DNA of 59,450 nt from an uncultured Candidatus Saccharibacteria bacterium (GCA_964577395.1 CAZNYQ010000004.1:1-59450); one strand, 5' to 3'. Positions 24,390 to 30,320 are shown, numbered from the stretch's first letter. A program made the numbers and translations. The notes: generated by a model from the sequence alone, not told the origin.

Positions 24390-24926
24390 ATGTTACAGAA
24401 TTCAAGAAGTATACGTATTGTAGGTTATGCAGGTATATTATTAGGAATTGCGCTTTTCTTTTACATGGCGCTTAGCGCAATTGGCATAGTTACAGGTTCA
24501 GTTTTTCTAATTTTACTTTCTGTACTCGGTGTATCGACAATATATTGTTCCTTTCCAATTTTGAGAATAATTAAGCCAGAGCATTGCGACGACATGATAG
24601 AAGAGGTTGTGCTCCTATCTTATTTGCCAAAAGCAGTATATGAAAAAGATGCTGTTTTGGTAGGTATTCACAGAGTACCTGATTGGGAATATAAAATAAT
24701 GATGCTTCCTTTAGCACATTTTGTTAAAAGAGATCGTGAAGCCATAAAAAAGAATTTTTCCTTGGATACAAATGCTCCATTGGCAATTACTAGGCTATAC
24801 ATCCAAAAACAAGAAACTCAACGAGGACCATTCTTGGAACTTGTTGAAGATGGAAAAGAAATCTTCTTAAGCCAATTTAATTCAGATGACAAAGAAGATG
24901 AAAGCCAAGAAACGGAAGTTCTGTAA
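24390..24926 (+). CDS. Hypothetical membrane protein (two N-terminal TM helices)
   Basis: TTGACA-17-TATATT promoter (24339-24367), AAGGAGGT SD, terminator 24934-24969. Confidence 0.72.
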   Translation: MLQNSRSIRIVGYAGILLGIALFFYMALSAIGIVTGSVFLILLSVLGVSTIYCSFPILRIIKPEHCDDMIEEVVLLSYLPKAVYEKDAVLVGIHRVPDWEYKIMMLPLAHFVKRDREAIKKNFSLDTNAPLAITRLYIQKQETQRGPFLELVEDGKEIFLSQFNSDDKEDESQETEVL

Positions 24927-24972: not shown

Positions 24973-26610
24973 TTAATTAGTTTTTTTGTCTTTTTTTTGC
25001 CCTTTTGTGTAATATTTTTTATATGGCAATTCTACATAAAAAGTTGTCCCCATATTCTCTCCTTCGCTTTTAGCATAAACTTTACCCTCATGAGCTTCTA
25101 CAATTTTATGACATATATATAATCCAATTCCCATACCACCAGCATGATATTTTTCACCACCCTTACCGCGACGAAACTTTTCATAAATAGCATCAATTTC
25201 TTCTTTTATCATCCCAACGCCCGTATCTTTAAATTTAAAAGTTATTTTATTGTCTTGAATCTCATTAGTAATTTCTAACCCTCCCTTTTCGGTATATTTA
25301 ATAGCATTATCGATGATATTTACAAAAACTTGCCTCATCTTATGAGGATCAGCATAAATAACAGGAACTTTTTGTAACTTAGCCTCTATTTTTAAATTCT
25401 TTTTATGAGCATTAACTTTTGCTTCGTTAATAACAGATTCAAGAATATCTTTTAAATCATCCACTTGACGAAATTCAAACTGGAGCTTGCCTCTTTCAAT
25501 ACGAGAAAGATTTAAGAGGTCATTAACTAGGCCAATTAAGCGTTCATTAGATGTATATACTCGGTTTAGAACTTCTTTCTTAGTTTTATCAAGCTTTCCG
25601 TAGCTACCATCTAAAATCATTGAAACATAGCCCTTAATGGCTGATAAAGGAGTTCTTAATTGATGAGAGGCAATTGAAATAAATTCAGATTTTGCTTTAT
25701 CAAGTTCTTTTAATTTAATATTGGCTTTTTGAAGTTTCTTAGCTAATTTTTCAGTTTCTTGACGTGCTTCGATCTCTTGTAAAACAGATTTAACGAGAAA
25801 TATACCAAAAACAATGGCACTCAAGAAAAGAGCTAAATTTAATACAAGTTGTTGTTTGTTTTCGAAGGTAAAAACATTAACTAATAGAATTAAAAGTAAA
25901 AGTCCCGTGAAGATTTCAGCTGTTAAAACTCTAATCTGAAGTAAATGATGGCGCAAGATTGCATATGTACTCGATACAATGAAAAATAGAACTGTTAAAG
26001 CTGAAAAATTAGCTACTCTTTCAATGCCCAAAAAAGGAAATAAAATTGTCCCAAAAAGCGCTAAGACGCTAGAAGAAATTGTACCAATTAAAATATATTT
26101 AATTTGTAACTTAACAACATCACTTTTATTTTTACGATAGCTTTGAATAAGTTTTACAAGCGCCCAAATAAGAAAAATAATAAAATAGGCTGTTAAAAGA
26201 AGGTGCAAGGGACCATGAATAATTTCCCTTGTTCCATCTTCTAAAATTTTAACTGACCTTACGTTCCAACTTGTTGGAGAAAAAATTAAGAAAATTAAAG
26301 AAGGCAAGGTAATAATAACTTTCTTAATATTACTCAAGGCAACTCTTTGAGGAAAAATATAGGTAAAATATAAAAAGATAGCCGGAATAGCTGCTATCCA
26401 GACAATTGCCGTCTGAGCCCAGAAGATTACCCCAACAAGCGTAAAAGACAAATCAATGAACAAAGAAGAGGTCAACCAAAAAGCAATGAAAAAAATCAAG
26501 GCTGCAAAGACTTGATTAATAGAAGAAGAACGATTATTCGCTAAAACCATTAATCCTAAAGCATAAACTGATATAAGAATGACGATGGCAATAATAAAAA
26601 TAATGCCCAT
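24973..26610 (-). CDS. Sensor histidine kinase with ~7-TM N-terminal domain (paralog 1)
   Basis: Multi-TM N-terminus, SHQLRTPL H-box, NIIDNAIKY N-box, DTGVG and GMGIGL G-boxes. Confidence 0.93.
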   Translation of the reverse strand: MGIIFIIAIVILISVYALGLMVLANNRSSSINQVFAALIFFIAFWLTSSLFIDLSFTLVGVIFWAQTAIVWIAAIPAIFLYFTYIFPQRVALSNIKKVIITLPSLIFLIFSPTSWNVRSVKILEDGTREIIHGPLHLLLTAYFIIFLIWALVKLIQSYRKNKSDVVKLQIKYILIGTISSSVLALFGTILFPFLGIERVANFSALTVLFFIVSSTYAILRHHLLQIRVLTAEIFTGLLLLILLVNVFTFENKQQLVLNLALFLSAIVFGIFLVKSVLQEIEARQETEKLAKKLQKANIKLKELDKAKSEFISIASHQLRTPLSAIKGYVSMILDGSYGKLDKTKKEVLNRVYTSNERLIGLVNDLLNLSRIERGKLQFEFRQVDDLKDILESVINEAKVNAHKKNLKIEAKLQKVPVIYADPHKMRQVFVNIIDNAIKYTEKGGLEITNEIQDNKITFKFKDTGVGMIKEEIDAIYEKFRRGKGGEKYHAGGMGIGLYICHKIVEAHEGKVYAKSEGENMGTTFYVELPYKKYYTKGQKKDKKTN

Positions 26611-26615
26611 AAATT

Positions 26616-28211
26616 TTAATTAAAAAAATGAAGTGGTAATTTAATGTAAAAAGTTGATCCTTTATTTAATCCCTCGCTTTCAGCCCATATTTTACCTCCG
26701 TGGGCTTGGATAATCTTATGAGCTACATATAATCCAATACCAGTTCCGTCTGGATGAATTTCAGCGCTTGAAGAGCCTCTTTGAAATTTTTTATAAATCG
26801 CTCCTAAATCTTCCTGACGCATACCAATTCCGGTATCTTCAACAGAAATAGTAGCATTTTCATCATCAATTTTTGTTCTAACGATAATTTTTCCCCGAGG
26901 AGTATACTTAATAGCATTATCAATAACATTTGTTAAAGCTTGCCTTAATTTATTAACATCTAAATTCATAAGAGGCAGATCTACTTTATGATACTTCAAC
27001 TTTAAGCCCCGTCTTTGAGCAATTACTTGAAATTCACCCACAACAGAATTAATTAAATCACTTAATTGAGCTTTCTTAAAATTAAATTCTAATTTACCTC
27101 TTTCAATACGAGATAGATTTAACAAATCATTAACTAATTTAATTAAACGTTCATTAGCTAAATAAATTTTATTTAAAGCTTCTTTTTCTTCGCTATCTTG
27201 AATTTCATCTAAGAGCATTGCTGCATAACCTTTAATAGCTGATAAAGGTGTTCTTAATTGATGAGAAGCAATTGAAATGAATTCAGATTTAATTTGATCT
27301 AACTTTTTTAAATGTTTATTAGCTTTTTTAAGTTCCTCGGCTAAATTGCTAATTCTCTCCTTCTGTTCTATTTCATTAATAACTGATCTGATGAGTGTTC
27401 CGCTAAAGATAAGACCTAGGATAAAAACGCTTAAATTTAAAAGAAAACGCCAAAAGTTATTGAAATAAAATATATTTAAGAAAAGAATTGAGATAAGAAA
27501 AAGAGATAAAACTTGGGCAACAATTAGCTTTATTTTAAGTAATTGATATTTAACAATTGCATAAGCAACCGCTGCTACAAAGAAGATAGTGCCAGCTTGG
27601 GCAACCCAATTAAATTTGAAAATAAACCCCCAGGGTAAAATAAGGTTAGTAATCAAACCAAGAGATACTGGCGTAAAAGTAGCAAAGATAACCCATCTTA
27701 ATTGTTTCTTTTGAAGGAAATTACTTTTTTTAAGTCTTTTTAAAAAGTTGAAAAAAGTCCATCCAAAATATATAAAATAAAAAATAAAATAAAAAACATA
27801 ACCAGTTCCGAAATAAATTGCTTTCTCTCCTGTTTTATTTAAAACAATATGATCAATAATAAAACCAGGAATTAAAGCCGAACCAGCTATGATTAAAGGA
27901 GGCACCCACAAGAAAAAATGTTGTTTAGGAGTTAATTTGAACTCTTTTTTTTGAAAAGCTATTGAAAAAAATAATAAACTAGGAGCTATAAAAACTGGGA
28001 AGAAATAAAGAATACGACACCACCAAATTGTCGCTAAAGGATTTGAAGTCCAGCGATAAACAATCATAGAGATTGTCCAAAGAAAAATACTGAAAGTTAA
28101 AAGACTAAAAGCAATATTAACAGGATTCTTTTTTCTTTGAAAATAAATATAGAAACCTAAGCCGAAATTAAAAATAGCGGCAATAGTTAAAGCAATATTG
28201 ATTAAATCCAT
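26616..28211 (-). CDS. Sensor histidine kinase with ~7-TM N-terminal domain (paralog 2)
   Basis: Multi-TM N-terminus, SHQLRTPL, NVIDNAIKY, DTGIG, GTGIGL. Confidence 0.93.
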   Translation of the reverse strand: MDLINIALTIAAIFNFGLGFYIYFQRKKNPVNIAFSLLTFSIFLWTISMIVYRWTSNPLATIWWCRILYFFPVFIAPSLLFFSIAFQKKEFKLTPKQHFFLWVPPLIIAGSALIPGFIIDHIVLNKTGEKAIYFGTGYVFYFIFYFIYFGWTFFNFLKRLKKSNFLQKKQLRWVIFATFTPVSLGLITNLILPWGFIFKFNWVAQAGTIFFVAAVAYAIVKYQLLKIKLIVAQVLSLFLISILFLNIFYFNNFWRFLLNLSVFILGLIFSGTLIRSVINEIEQKERISNLAEELKKANKHLKKLDQIKSEFISIASHQLRTPLSAIKGYAAMLLDEIQDSEEKEALNKIYLANERLIKLVNDLLNLSRIERGKLEFNFKKAQLSDLINSVVGEFQVIAQRRGLKLKYHKVDLPLMNLDVNKLRQALTNVIDNAIKYTPRGKIIVRTKIDDENATISVEDTGIGMRQEDLGAIYKKFQRGSSSAEIHPDGTGIGLYVAHKIIQAHGGKIWAESEGLNKGSTFYIKLPLHFFN

Positions 28212-28280
28212 AAAACTTAGAAACTATGCTTAAAATGTTTTCTAAGCATATTTTAACTTTTTTTTAAATTTTACGCAAAA

Positions 28281-28308
28281 AGAAAACAGGGGATAAATCT
28301 ATCCCCTG
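28281..28308 (-). terminator. Intrinsic terminator overlapping the stop of the reductase-like gene
   Basis: CAGGGGATA/TATCCCCTG followed by TTTTCTTTTT on the minus strand. Confidence 0.7.
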
Positions 28309-29525
28309 CGACGAATATTGTAAATTTCAATATCTGAAACGTATTTTCCTTTCTCCCTAAAAGGCGCGAAACTAATACCTAATTCTTGGGCTTTATGAGC
28401 TAATTGACTAATTATTTTAATTGTTTGTATATAACCAGAAGTTTCATAAAATCCAGCCTCAAGAACAACCACTCCTTCAGCTGCGCAAGTTACAACATCT
28501 TGGTCACCTATCTGACTAATAGGAAAAGTGTATTTAATTCCAGGCACATCTGCCATTACACTTAAAACAACTGTATCTTTTTGATCAAGATTAGCTGTCA
28601 CATTTGAAGGATGAGTATCATCGATAACGATTGTGCCTTTTGAAAGCATTGTTTTCTTTAAGAGAACTTGAGGAGCTGCTGTGGCAACAATCACTATATC
28701 TTTTCCTTGAGATTGCTTAATATCTTGACTAATTCTTATGCCGGGAAACTGTTCTTTAACACTTTCTAATTTTTCTCTATTAATATCAATTACTGTGATA
28801 TTTTGCTCTAAATCACGATACATTAACCAATAGAGAATATTTAATCCCATACTACCAGCTCCACCCACTAAGGCAATTTGATAATCCTCAAGTCTTTCCT
28901 GGGCAATTTCAGCAACTCTCTTAATCATTTCTGAAATTAAATATGGAGTTAGATAATTGCCAGTTAAGAAAGGTCCTTGAACACCTTTTTTTGTTAGACA
29001 CTTAATCATTCTACCTGTTAAGGCTCCTAAAATAATCGGGAAGTCTAATTTTTGCTGTAAGGCTAATAAGATCTTTGTCATTTCTTCCCGTCTAGCCTGT
29101 AAAATTTTCATTTTAGGCCGGTAGGATTGTCTTTTTTCTTTCTCAAGAGGCGGCAGCCAGTAATCTGGCGCAAGAGGCAAGGTTATTACAGGAATACTGT
29201 ACTTTGATCTTACTTGAATTGTGTCTAAAACTAAAGGCCATAATGCTTCCAAGGCTTCTTCTTTAGAATAGGATCCTAATAATGCTTGGTTCTTAAAAAA
29301 AGAACAACGGTTGAAAACGTCCTCTTGATTACGCGGATGAACTATCATAACAGCATCTATGGATCCATCAAATTGATTAATGATTTTATCTGGTTGATTG
29401 TTTTCAGCAGCTTTGATTAATGCAAGATCTTTAAGAGTTTTTTGAACAGAAAGACAATCTTCTGAAGATATCCTTTCGTTTTGTAAAATATTTAACAATA
29501 ACAATTCTAATTCTTGTCTATTCAT
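28299..29525 (-). CDS. NAD(P)-binding oxidoreductase resembling the fatty acyl-ACP reductase (AAR) family
   Basis: MIVHP, LGALT, LTGNYLT, Rossmann IALVGGAGSMG, IDDTHPSNV, VTCAAEG; order matches AAR motifs recalled from memory. Confidence 0.65.
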   Translation of the reverse strand: MNRQELELLLLNILQNERISSEDCLSVQKTLKDLALIKAAENNQPDKIINQFDGSIDAVMIVHPRNQEDVFNRCSFFKNQALLGSYSKEEALEALWPLVLDTIQVRSKYSIPVITLPLAPDYWLPPLEKEKRQSYRPKMKILQARREEMTKILLALQQKLDFPIILGALTGRMIKCLTKKGVQGPFLTGNYLTPYLISEMIKRVAEIAQERLEDYQIALVGGAGSMGLNILYWLMYRDLEQNITVIDINREKLESVKEQFPGIRISQDIKQSQGKDIVIVATAAPQVLLKKTMLSKGTIVIDDTHPSNVTANLDQKDTVVLSVMADVPGIKYTFPISQIGDQDVVTCAAEGVVVLEAGFYETSGYIQTIKIISQLAHKAQELGISFAPFREKGKYVSDIEIYNIRRRG

Positions 29526-29864: not shown

Positions 29865-30320
29865 ATGGAAGCAACAGTTATTTTAAAAATATCGGCTCTG
29901 TCTGTTTTTATAATCATTGCCATTGATTATTTCAAGCTATGGCAAAGATTTAAAAACTTTCTAGATAAAATAAGGCAAACTGCAATAAAACATGGTATCT
30001 CACCAATAGTTTTTCTTATTATTTGGTTCGCAACAACTATTATCCGATATTTCACAAGTTGGTATGGAGCCCACTTAGCTTTAAAAAACCATAACGGTAT
30101 GAATACCGGATGTGTCATTGGAAATCGCTTAGCTGCCTTTGCTATTCCTGCGTACATTCTATGGGCAACGCGCAAGAAACATTTCCAATGGTGGGTTTAT
30201 GCCATATATATAAGTTTATGGATCTTTGGAGGGGTATTAGAAATTATTGCCCCTAAATGGTTTCTGTATTTCAAGGATGGATTATGGAAGTTGTTCTTAG
30301 ACATTCTAGGAATACATTAA
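29865..30320 (+). CDS. Hypothetical membrane protein
   Basis: 3-4 TM segments, GAGGAGG SD, hairpin terminator at 30319-30351. Confidence 0.7.
   Translation: MEATVILKISALSVFIIIAIDYFKLWQRFKNFLDKIRQTAIKHGISPIVFLIIWFATTIIRYFTSWYGAHLALKNHNGMNTGCVIGNRLAAFAIPAYILWATRKKHFQWWVYAIYISLWIFGGVLEIIAPKWFLYFKDGLWKLFLDILGIH

What the first reader, a model, noticed from the sequence alone, without database searches (positions are those of the whole stretch)
24973..29525. Possible lipid-signal synthase/receptor module: AAR-like reductase next to twin 7TM histidine kinases
Seen: three co-oriented genes. The 408-aa enzyme has HP...GALT...TGN.LT, a Rossmann GGAGSMG, IDDTHP.NV and TCAAE. The two kinases share an almost identical DHp helix (KSEFISIASHQLRTPLSAIKGY) but have divergent membrane sensor domains. 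No response regulator is in the 59-kb window. Established (from memory): cyanobacterial acyl-ACP reductase has this motif order with a catalytic Cys in ACFAE and makes fatty aldehydes; synthase plus membrane kinase pairs (CqsA/CqsS, LqsA/LqsS, LuxM/LuxN) mediate lipid-like quorum signalling; CPR generally lack fatty-acid synthesis. Inference: the enzyme converts host-derived acyl thioesters into an aldehyde/alcohol signal read by two receptors feeding one regulator. Caveat: a terminator at 28281-28308 separates the enzyme from the kinases, so adjacency could be incidental.
Basis: partly seen in the sequence, partly recalled or inferred. Interest (0 to 1): 0.72.

Follow-up and report, generated by a model that had tools for sequence, protein, structure and literature searches.

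The report
Acyl-thioester enzyme paired with membrane kinases
An ultra-small freshwater bacterium encodes a relative of the cyanobacterial fatty-aldehyde-forming enzyme directly in front of two membrane-embedded sensor kinases, and the same enzyme-then-kinase pair recurs in many unrelated genomes, which points to an undescribed lipid-linked sensing module whose ligand is unknown.

Summary
The window has three co-oriented minus-strand genes. The first is a 408-aa soluble enzyme of the AAR / PigE-N / TAD fold with the catalytic Cys in place. The other two are intact HisKA_7TM histidine kinases, HK-A and HK-B, which are old paralogues. No receiver domain is in the window.

Of 41 informative non-redundant homologue loci, 26 have a HisKA_7TM kinase immediately downstream on the same strand, in unrelated gene contexts. 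No such kinase occurs anywhere else among 376 flanking genes. So enzyme plus 7TM kinase is a conserved functional module (about 0.85-0.9).

How it works is inferred, not shown. I favour a self-monitoring lipid loop over cell-to-cell quorum sensing. Relatives carry PilZ or PlsC fusions, FadL upstream, and HD-GYP response regulators downstream. One locus has all the parts of a kinase, c-di-GMP, enzyme circuit. One sublineage has a decaying enzyme (N-terminus lost, Cys to Ser) but intact kinases.

In this lineage a conserved terminator plus promoter-like element separates the enzyme from the kinases.

I found no description of the pair in the searchable literature. Earlier agents of this scan noted it in other genomes.

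The parts
28299..29525 (-). AAR/PigE-N/TAD-fold acyl-thioester enzyme, 408 aa, soluble. Family-invariant residues are H63, D69, G221/G224/G227, D302, P306, C347 and E350. D247 sits at the end of strand beta-2.
   Evidence: ORF. NCBIfam hits to AcACP_reductase (46.9 bits, cut-off 449.7) and PigE. Profile against PDB. Model with pLDDT 92.7. Foldseek top hits AAR and TAD. Invariant columns. No TM segment (maximum KD19 1.46).
28276..28309 (-). Intrinsic-terminator-like hairpin GCAGGGGATA/TATCCCCTGT plus T-run, overlapping the enzyme's stop codon.
   Evidence: The ACAGGGGA...TCCCCTGT stem and T-run are conserved in all 10 loci of the lineage.
28250..28278 (-). Conserved promoter-like element for the kinases: TTGCGT, 17 nt, TAAAAT, directly after the terminator.
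   Evidence: Read. TTGC and GTTAAAAT are conserved across the lineage alignment. The -35 matches the consensus at only 3 of 6 positions, so the consensus scan does not list it. Function is inferred.
26616..28211 (-). HK-A: HisKA_7TM histidine kinase with 9 predicted TM helices, an outside beta-hairpin at residues 119-134, and the last TM helix running straight into the DHp. H317, N, G1 and G2 boxes are intact. It is the ancestral-type partner.
   Evidence: It is closer than HK-B to the single-copy kinases of other loci.
24973..26610 (-). HK-B: paralogous HisKA_7TM histidine kinase with a diverged sensor domain. It starts 5 nt after the HK-A stop, so translational coupling is likely.
   Evidence: A and B orthologue groups are each conserved across the lineage (55-66% in the 7TM part), while A against B is about 20%.

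Best explanation
The three genes are one conserved enzyme-plus-sensor module.

The enzyme is a soluble, cysteine-dependent acyl-thioester enzyme of the AAR / PigE-N / TAD fold, probably NAD(H)-dependent. By analogy it loads an acyl chain from a thioester onto Cys347 and releases a hydrophobic product, most likely a fatty aldehyde.

The two kinases are intramembrane-sensing HisKA_7TM kinases. Each has nine TM helices, almost no extracellular domain, and a last TM helix that runs directly into the DHp helix.

The enzyme and the 7TM domain act on the same lipid. The 7TM domain reads the enzyme's product, its substrate pool, or the membrane state it creates. The kinase output, through a regulator encoded elsewhere, feeds back on lipid handling. 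This is a self-monitoring lipid loop of an organism that scavenges lipids, not a cell-to-cell quorum signal.

HK-A is the original partner. HK-B is an old duplicate with a re-specified sensor domain.

Shown: fold and catalytic Cys, intact kinases, and conserved linkage.
Inferred: the chemistry, the ligand, and the direction of information flow.
For: Linkage:
- 26 of 41 informative clusters (80% identity) have a co-oriented HisKA_7TM kinase at -44 to +199 nt downstream.
- Contexts differ: DnaK/DnaJ, tRNA synthetases, FadL, MFS, NAD synthase.
- No 7TM kinase occurs elsewhere among 376 flank genes.
- The linked state is found in almost every deep branch of the enzyme tree.
- Four of four sampled fusion proteins (PilZ- or PlsC-enzyme) are also followed by a kinase, three of them of the 7TM type.

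Enzyme:
- Profile hits to AAR at 1.6e-41 and PigE at 2.7e-39, with the Cys aligned.
- Fold match to AAR and TAD.
- AAR and PigE-N reduce thioesters to aldehydes (PMC8341465).
- dN/dS of 0.13-0.15 shows the gene is under purifying selection.

Lipid link:
- PlsC acyltransferase fusions in 5 of 20 long relatives.
- FadL directly upstream in L059 and L076.
- KS plus ACP upstream in L013.

Loop:
- RR-GAF-HD-GYP follows the kinase in L059, L035 and L075.
- PilZ is fused to the enzyme in 7 of 20 long relatives.
- L075 has PilZ-enzyme, 7TM kinase and RR-HD-GYP together.

Specific tie to the sensor domain:
- Enzyme distances track 7TM distances (r 0.77) better than kinase-core distances (r 0.50).
- The partial correlation is 0.68, permutation p 5e-4.
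Against: - No biochemical datum exists for any member of the kinase-linked clades.
- TAD, a fold relative, may not be a reductase at all (10.1101/2024.10.28.620694).
- In this lineage the enzyme and kinases are separated by a conserved terminator and promoter-like element, so co-expression is not guaranteed.
- The enzyme is only 36-42% identical across the lineage, while the kinases are 61-69%. This gives no sign of matched signal and receptor diversification within the lineage.
- In L009/L010 the enzyme has lost its N-terminal third, carries a frameshift and has Cys to Ser, while both kinases stay intact. So the kinases do not strictly need the enzyme's catalysis.
- No acyl carrier protein is in the window.
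- The rest of the genome could not be searched.
- The Mantel result is confounded by shared ancestry.
Confidence: 0.5

Rival explanations
1. Quorum-sensing pair. The enzyme makes a diffusible aldehyde or alcohol autoinducer from acyl thioesters. The signal leaves the cell and is read from outside by the two 7TM kinases, as in CqsA/CqsS, LqsA/LqsS or LuxM/LuxN.
For: There is tight, conserved synthase-like and membrane-kinase adjacency. The products of AAR-type enzymes are hydrophobic and could cross membranes. A conserved outside beta-hairpin (residues 119-134, GEKxIxFGxxY) is a possible external contact.
Against: - The enzyme is unrelated to CqsA or LuxM.
- The kinases are not hybrid kinases, as they have no receiver domain.
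- PilZ fusions and HD-GYP regulators indicate intracellular control of the enzyme.
- Within the lineage the receptor sensor domains are highly conserved while the enzyme drifts, which is the opposite of dialect-type co-diversification.
- L009 keeps both receptors with a broken synthase.
Confidence: 0.15
2. DesK/Des-type arrangement without product sensing. The 7TM kinases sense a bulk membrane property or an exogenous fatty acid or host lipid. The enzyme is simply the regulated target (output) of the pathway. Adjacency reflects regulation, not ligand supply.
For: - The architecture is like DesK: multi-pass, no extracellular domain, TM helix continuous with the DHp (DesK from established knowledge).
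- In this lineage the enzyme has its own transcription unit, separated by a terminator and promoter-like element, as des is separate from desKR.
- The kinase, RR-HD-GYP, c-di-GMP, PilZ-enzyme logic in L075 places the enzyme downstream.
- FadL upstream suggests imported lipid as the input.
- Kinases persist without an active enzyme in L009.
Against: - The strict order of enzyme then kinase, with overlapping or closely abutting ORFs (-44 to +13 nt) in non-CPR loci, suggests co-translation and stoichiometric coupling rather than mere regulation.
- Enzyme divergence tracks the sensor domain, not the kinase core.
- No DNA-binding regulator was seen next to any module.
- No conserved operator was found upstream of the enzyme.
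Confidence: 0.2
3. Co-sensor complex. The enzyme docks on the cytoplasmic face of the kinase and acts mainly as a ligand-binding subunit that reports acyl-thioester or NAD(H) state. Catalysis is secondary or dispensable.
For: - The truncated Cys-to-Ser copy in L009/L010 is still an open 314-codon frame, 69% identical to its nearest relative over the retained part. It was seen on four contigs.
- ORFs are tightly coupled in many loci.
- There is a partial correlation between the enzyme and the 7TM domain.
Against: Cys347, Glu350, His63, Asp302 and the Rossmann glycines are invariant in the 21-sequence alignment A2, which omits the truncated Cys-to-Ser copy P0010. This argues for retained chemistry. 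No interaction test could be run. The L009 copy has raised dN/dS (0.26) and looks more like decay.
Confidence: 0.12
4. Incidental adjacency. The enzyme and kinases are functionally unrelated neighbours held together by lineage synteny.
For: All close homologues (36-42% identity) lie in one syntenic block, CysS-CorA-TopA-DprA-x-enzyme-HK-HK-x-ClpB. A terminator separates the genes.
Against: The pair recurs outside that block in at least eight other contexts and several deep clades. The background rate of 7TM kinases in the flanks is zero.
Confidence: 0.03

Closest known systems
Cyanobacterial acyl-ACP reductase AAR (EC 1.2.1.80; TIGR04058; PDB 6JZQ/6JZU/6JZY)
   Same: Same three-part fold (Foldseek E 8e-16, TM 0.66/0.78). 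The Rossmann GxxGxxG is present. The catalytic Cys sits in an xCxAE motif aligned with AAR Cys294, and the N-terminal His motif is present.
   Different: - About 16% identity, and 46.9 bits against a 449.7-bit family cut-off.
- An extra N-terminal three-helix extension (residues 1-55) and an inserted helix at 133-157.
- Asp247 where AAR has Thr-Ala-Arg, which suggests NAD(H) rather than NADPH.
- The neighbouring partner is a 7TM kinase, not an aldehyde-deformylating oxygenase.
PigE N-terminal thioester-reductase domain (prodigiosin MAP pathway; PDB 4PPM; PMC8341465) and TamH-type reductase domains
   Same: Same superfamily: the family profile matches at E 2.7e-39 over the whole domain. It reduces a thioester to an aldehyde.
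   Different: PigE is fused to a class III aminotransferase that consumes the aldehyde. No aminotransferase is fused to or adjacent to the enzyme here.
Putative terminal amidation domain (TAD) of the carmabin NRPS CarI (PDB 9E4S/9E4X/9E50; bioRxiv 10.1101/2024.10.28.620694)
   Same: AAR-like didomain fold with an invariant Cys and NAD(H) preference (TM 0.60-0.70). That paper's 'cluster 4' consists of discrete proteins outside biosynthetic clusters.
   Different: TAD sits at the end of NRPS modules and is proposed to amidate. Here the protein stands alone and is coupled to a kinase. The profile match covers only the middle part (E 1e-19).
DesK-DesR-Des membrane-fluidity loop of Bacillus subtilis (from established knowledge)
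   Same: A lipid-modifying enzyme gene lies next to a multi-pass kinase with no extracellular domain, whose TM helix continues into the DHp. The enzyme product changes what the kinase senses.
   Different: DesK has 5 TM helices and a HisKA_3 core. Des is a desaturase. The regulator is adjacent and DNA-binding. None of the proteins is homologous to those here.
CqsA/CqsS, LqsA/LqsS, LuxM/LuxN autoinducer synthase and membrane-kinase pairs (from established knowledge)
   Same: An enzyme that uses acyl thioesters is encoded next to a polytopic membrane histidine kinase that reads a hydrophobic product.
   Different: The synthases belong to other families (PLP-dependent or LuxM). The receptors are hybrid kinases with receiver domains and 6-9 TM helices of other families. 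No evidence here points to a secreted signal.

Membership tests
AAR sensu stricto (TIGR04058 equivalog) | Score at or above the curated family cut-off | tested here: not met
   46.9 bits against a cut-off of 449.7, and only residues 186-322 matched.
AAR/PigE-N/TAD fold superfamily | Macro-like N-domain plus Rossmann domain plus C-terminal part, detectable by profile and by fold | tested here: met
   Family profile against AAR at E 1.6e-41 (chain residues 32-335), PigE at 2.7e-39 and TAD at 1e-19. Foldseek gives AAR at E 8e-16, TM 0.66/0.78, and TAD at TM 0.60-0.70.
AAR/PigE-N/TAD fold superfamily | Invariant catalytic cysteine after the Rossmann domain (AAR Cys294, CarI Cys2238) | tested here: met
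   Cys347 in TCAAE aligns with AAR ACFAE. It is invariant in 21 of 21 sequences of alignment A2. The only exception found is the truncated copy P0010 (Ser), which is in A1 but not A2.
AAR sensu stricto | NADPH specificity (basic residue after beta-2) | tested here: not met
   Asp247 (ITVID) and Asp/Glu in relatives occupy the position where AAR has T-A-R. Cofactor use is inferred from the Rossmann rule and was not measured.
AAR sensu stricto | Works with an adjacent aldehyde-deformylating oxygenase | tested here: not met
   The downstream neighbours are two kinases. The upstream neighbour is a 151-aa membrane protein with no Pfam match. The rest of the genome was not searchable.
AAR/PigE-N | Thioester-to-aldehyde reductase activity | not testable with these tools
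   Requires an enzyme assay.
HisKA_7TM histidine kinases (PF16927 + PF00512 + PF02518) | All three domains above the Pfam gathering score | tested here: met
   HK-A scores 59.4, 69.0 and 93.4 bits. HK-B scores 38.5, 69.8 and 82.0 bits.
HisKA_7TM histidine kinases | Phospho-acceptor His and the N, G1 and G2 ATP-binding boxes intact | tested here: met
   H317, N428/D431/N432, D459xGxG and GxGxG 489-493 are invariant or nearly so in 23 kinases, including both window copies.
Autoinducer synthase/receptor pairs (CqsA/CqsS type) | Synthase homologous to CqsA, LqsA or LuxM | tested here: not met
   The only Pfam and NCBIfam hits are Rossmann dehydrogenase, AAR, PigE and HemA.
Autoinducer synthase/receptor pairs (CqsA/CqsS type) | Hybrid receptor kinase with a C-terminal receiver domain | tested here: not met
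   Neither kinase has a Response_reg domain.
Autoinducer synthase/receptor pairs (CqsA/CqsS type) | Extracellular, density-dependent signal | not testable with these tools
   Requires culture or heterologous expression.

The most novel reading that the evidence does not exclude
HisKA_7TM kinases have no known ligand. They may be the receptors of a widespread, undescribed lipid-signalling system whose dedicated ligand-making enzyme is the AAR-fold Cys/NAD(H) thioester reductase encoded just upstream. In lipid-auxotrophic Patescibacteria the module would convert scavenged, host-derived acyl chains into a membrane aldehyde cue. The two paralogous receptors would read that cue, letting the epibiont sense host lipid supply. 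In other phyla the same pair would be wired through HD-GYP and PilZ to c-di-GMP.
Probability: 0.3. Interest if true: 0.8.

Novelty: new variant of a known kind. Interest (0 to 1): 0.62.

Why it matters
HisKA_7TM is a widespread sensor domain of bacterial and archaeal kinases. The two papers that mention it list it only as a sensor domain and name no ligand or stimulus (PMC5847659, PMC6944256). A conserved, catalytically intact partner enzyme of a fold that handles acyl thioesters narrows the search to a small, testable class of lipid-derived molecules.

Candidate phyla radiation bacteria are generally held to lack fatty-acid synthesis and to depend on host lipids (established knowledge, not tested here). 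A lipid-linked two-component input would be one of the few concrete handles on how these cells perceive their host or their membrane state.

PilZ-enzyme, 7TM kinase and RR-HD-GYP together in a single relative locus suggest a previously unnoticed connection between c-di-GMP signalling and acyl-thioester chemistry.

Tried and rejected
- Whole-genome searches for an orphan response regulator, ACP, acyl-CoA ligase or ADO were impossible because the genome tools were shut.
- A broad 21-sequence alignment was too diverse for the locus scan, so a narrower one was used. The sampled loci are therefore biased towards proteins with the [GN][TA][IV][VI][IL]DD[TS][HQ]P motif.
- Only DNA runs hold this stretch, so transcript boundaries could not be checked.
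- An alignment of the 260 nt upstream of the enzyme across nine lineage loci showed no conserved operator-like motif.
- A search for an ACP in the window and all flanks found only the one in L013.
- A plasmid search for a cultured carrier returned only PigE-like aminotransferase fusions.
- A retinal-like Schiff-base idea (aldehyde plus 7TM) was dropped. The only Lys near TM7 (in the AYAIVKY motif) is replaced by Arg or Thr in relatives.
- A GluTR-like role on aminoacyl-tRNA was considered because tRNA synthetase genes often lie nearby. It was rejected because the catalytic Cys is at the AAR position, not the GluTR position, and the synthetases differ from locus to locus.
- I did not run a fold search on the HK-A model. 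The model cannot be trimmed, so kinase-core hits would dominate.

Full report
**1. What is in the window**

The region holds three co-oriented minus-strand ORFs:
- a 408-aa enzyme at 28299-29525;
- a 531-aa kinase, HK-A, at 26616-28211;
- a 545-aa kinase, HK-B, at 24973-26610, starting 5 nt after the HK-A stop.

The window has about 30% G+C. The genes lie inside a housekeeping block: ClpB, then a small ORF, HK-B, HK-A, the enzyme, another small ORF, DprA, TopA, CorA and CysS.

Both kinases carry HisKA_7TM, HisKA and HATPase_c above Pfam's thresholds. No receiver domain is encoded in any window ORF of 60 aa or more. The HMM used for this check found receivers elsewhere at E 1e-17 to 1e-28.

**2. 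The enzyme**

Pfam sees only a Shikimate_DH-type Rossmann domain. NCBIfam gives weak hits to acyl-ACP reductase (46.9 bits, cut-off 449.7), to PigE and to HemA. The single sequence hits AAR in the PDB at E 1.5e-4.

A profile of 21 family members is much clearer:
- AAR 6jzq at E 1.6e-41, over chain residues 32-335 of 347;
- the PigE N-terminal domain 4ppm at 2.7e-39;
- the carmabin TAD at 1e-19.

The family's invariant tCLaE aligns with AAR's ACFAE, which holds catalytic Cys294. Invariant residues across the 21 sequences are H63, D69, L166, G167, G189, G221, G224, G227, D302, P306, C347 and E350.

The AlphaFold model is confident (pLDDT 92.7, pTM 0.91). Its best structural matches are AAR (E 8e-16, TM 0.66/0.78) and TAD (TM 0.60-0.70). 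The next hits fall to TM of about 0.3.

Two characterised relatives, AAR and PigE-N, reduce thioesters to aldehydes through an acyl-Cys intermediate (PMC8341465). TAD is proposed to amidate and prefers NAD(H) (10.1101/2024.10.28.620694).

The window enzyme has Asp247 at the end of beta-2, where AAR has Thr-Ala-Arg. By the usual Rossmann rule this suggests NAD(H). That is an inference.

The enzyme has no TM segment. It is therefore a member of the AAR/PigE-N/TAD superfamily but not an AAR orthologue.

**3. The kinases**

HK-A and HK-B are 37% identical overall. Identity is 20% in the 7TM part, 38% in the linker and 53% in the catalytic core. The DHp helix-1 22-mer is identical in the two.

Across the lineage each paralogue has its own orthologues: 55-66% identity in the 7TM part for A and 57-63% for B. 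So the duplication is old and both copies are maintained.

HK-A's sensor is closer than HK-B's to the single-copy kinases of other loci, for example 35-36% against 27-28% to L061 and L054. HK-A is therefore the ancestral-type partner.

The His, N, G1 and G2 boxes are intact in all 23 kinases aligned.

The HK-A model (pLDDT about 80) shows:
- nine TM helices;
- one short beta-hairpin (residues 119-134) on the outer side;
- a last TM helix that runs uninterrupted into the DHp helix.

This is the layout of an intramembrane-sensing kinase. The two papers that mention HisKA_7TM list it only as a sensor domain and name no ligand or stimulus (PMC5847659, PMC6944256).

**4. Is the adjacency meaningful?**

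The nine close homologues (36-42% identity) all lie in the same syntenic block. They count as one observation.

I therefore collected more distant relatives from genome and metagenome contigs, called ORFs, and scored them with HMMs for the enzyme, the 7TM domain, the kinase core and the receiver domain. The 73 loci collapse to 50 clusters at 80% enzyme identity:
- 26 have a HisKA_7TM gene immediately downstream on the same strand (gap -44 to +199 nt);
- 15 have none;
- 9 have no room on the contig.

The surrounding genes differ between loci:
- DnaK-DnaJ and TyrS/TrpS in L016 and L042;
- ArgS in L020;
- LeuS in L073;
- NAD synthase in L054;
- FadL in L059;
- IMPase-MFS in L035;
- KS-ACP in L013.

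Among 376 other genes in these flanks, the only further 7TM kinases are the tandem second copies.

On a maximum-likelihood tree the linked state occupies almost every deep branch. One well-supported clade of ten lacks it. Members of that clade are instead followed by a Pyr_redox_2 flavoprotein.

Four fusion proteins were sampled independently from the exhaustive profile search, which returned 2,689 hits at E≤1e-3. All four are also followed by a kinase:
- PilZ-enzyme followed by a 7TM protein (L074);
- two PilZ domains fused to the enzyme, followed by a 7TM kinase and then RR-HD-GYP (L075);
- PilZ-enzyme followed by a non-7TM kinase (L076);
- PlsC-enzyme followed by a 7TM kinase (L078).

It clearly fails to refute the reading.

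**5. The terminator**

The hairpin at 28309-28286 (10 bp, 5 G-C pairs, T-run) overlaps the enzyme's stop codon. The same ACAGGGGA...TCCCCTGT stem plus T-run is present in all ten lineage loci. It is followed directly by a conserved TTGC-N17-TAAAAT promoter-like element.

Unrelated hairpin-plus-T-run elements sit in the same gap in other candidate phyla radiation loci (L016, L042, L044, L058, L073). In the non-CPR loci the ORFs overlap or abut.

In this lineage the enzyme and the kinases are therefore probably separate, or attenuated, transcription units. That is compatible with either differential dosage or regulation of the enzyme gene by the pathway. Only DNA runs hold the sequence, so no RNA data exist to test this.

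**6. Clues to mechanism**

(a) Lipid link:
- PlsC acyltransferase is fused to the enzyme in 5 of 20 long relatives.
- FadL lies directly upstream in two independent loci.
- KS plus ACP lie upstream in L013.

(b) Second-messenger link:
- PilZ is fused to the enzyme in 7 of 20 long relatives.
- RR-GAF-HD-GYP or RR-HD-GYP follows the kinase in L059, L035/L036 and L075.
- L075 contains all the parts of a kinase, HD-GYP, c-di-GMP, PilZ-enzyme circuit. In that locus at least, this puts the enzyme downstream of the kinase.

(c) Rates:
- Against the window, lineage orthologues are 73-77% identical for ClpB, 62-65% for TopA, 61-69% for the kinases, and only 36-42% for the enzyme.
- dN/dS is 0.13-0.15 for the enzyme and 0.03-0.05 for HK-A.
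- The enzyme is constrained but far more free to change than its supposed receptors.

(d) Decay:
- In L009/L010 the enzyme has lost residues 1-112, carries a frameshift at about residue 123, and has Ser in place of the catalytic Cys.
- Both kinases there are intact.

(e) Co-variation:
- Across 18 loci, enzyme distances correlate with 7TM distances (r 0.77) more than with kinase-core distances (r 0.50).
- The partial correlation is 0.68, permutation p 5e-4.
- The reverse partial correlation is -0.08.
- This ties the enzyme to the sensor domain, although shared ancestry confounds such tests.

**7. Reading**

I put the claim that enzyme and 7TM kinase form one functional module at about 0.85-0.9.

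The most economical mechanism has three parts. A cytoplasmic Cys/NAD(H) enzyme turns an acyl thioester into a hydrophobic product at the membrane. The 7TM domain reads that product, or the lipid state it reports. The pathway feeds back on the enzyme.

Points (b), (c) and (d) favour such a self-monitoring loop, or a DesK/Des-like arrangement, over a secreted quorum signal. Nothing here tests secretion.

"Two receptors feeding one regulator" is consistent with the conserved DHp helices but is untested. The regulator is not in the window, and the genome could not be searched.

**8. Novelty**

Full-text searches returned no description of an AAR-fold enzyme coupled to a HisKA_7TM kinase, nor of PilZ-AAR fusions.

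After my own neighbourhood analysis, I found that earlier agents of this scan had noted the same pairing in at least seven other genomes. Those are unchecked AI notes, not independent evidence. They do mean that this window is a further instance rather than the first sighting.

The features particular to this window are:
- the old tandem duplication of the kinase;
- the fast-evolving enzyme subclade, with its N-terminal three-helix extension;
- the conserved terminator and promoter-like element between enzyme and kinases;
- the sister lineage with a decaying enzyme.

Noticed in passing
L009:7440-8945 and L010 (relatives of the window locus): The enzyme gene is decaying in one sublineage. Residues 1-112 are gone, there is a frameshift near residue 123, and the catalytic Cys is replaced by Ser. 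Both downstream kinases remain intact. The truncated protein was seen on four contigs.
   Followed up: yes
L075:380-6274; also L074, L076 and L077: PilZ domains are fused to the enzyme's N-terminus. In L075 the fusion is followed by a 7TM kinase and an RR-HD-GYP phosphodiesterase, which makes a complete candidate c-di-GMP loop. Full-text search found no paper describing PilZ-AAR fusions.
   Followed up: partly
L059:4426-5778 and L076:2-496: A FadL/TodX outer-membrane transporter for hydrophobic compounds lies directly upstream of the enzyme in two independent non-CPR loci.
   Followed up: partly
L039, L043, L052 and L057 (gene after the enzyme): A sister clade of the enzyme family is never followed by a kinase. 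Instead it is tightly coupled (gap about 10-15 nt) to a Pyr_redox_2 flavoprotein of about 430 aa. In L019 (Modestobacter) a GAF-EAL protein lies upstream.
   Followed up: partly
window 28226-28249 (minus strand) and the HK-A start at 28211: The window's HK-A has no Shine-Dalgarno sequence. In its 5' leader it has a 7-bp hairpin (ATGCTTA...TAAGCAT). Most lineage relatives have AAAGGAGGT at this place (alignment).
   Followed up: no
L016, L018, L020, L042, L073 and L078 (flanks of the module): Aminoacyl-tRNA synthetase genes of differing specificity (TyrS/TrpS, HisS, ArgS, LeuS, AspS/LysS-type) lie within one or two genes of the module in most candidate phyla radiation contexts. This looks more frequent than a rough chance estimate, but no specific synthetase recurs.
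   Followed up: no
window 29865-30320 (+) and 24390-24926 (+): Two small membrane proteins without Pfam matches bracket the module. The 151-aa one is divergent from the enzyme and the 178-aa one is convergent with HK-B. Weakly similar ORFs (23-33% identity) hold the same positions in lineage relatives, but not in other contexts.
   Followed up: partly
L054:4847-5623: An NAD synthase gene overlaps the start of a distant enzyme homologue by 4 nt. The TAD paper also remarks on NAD synthetase genes next to some TAD clusters.
   Followed up: no
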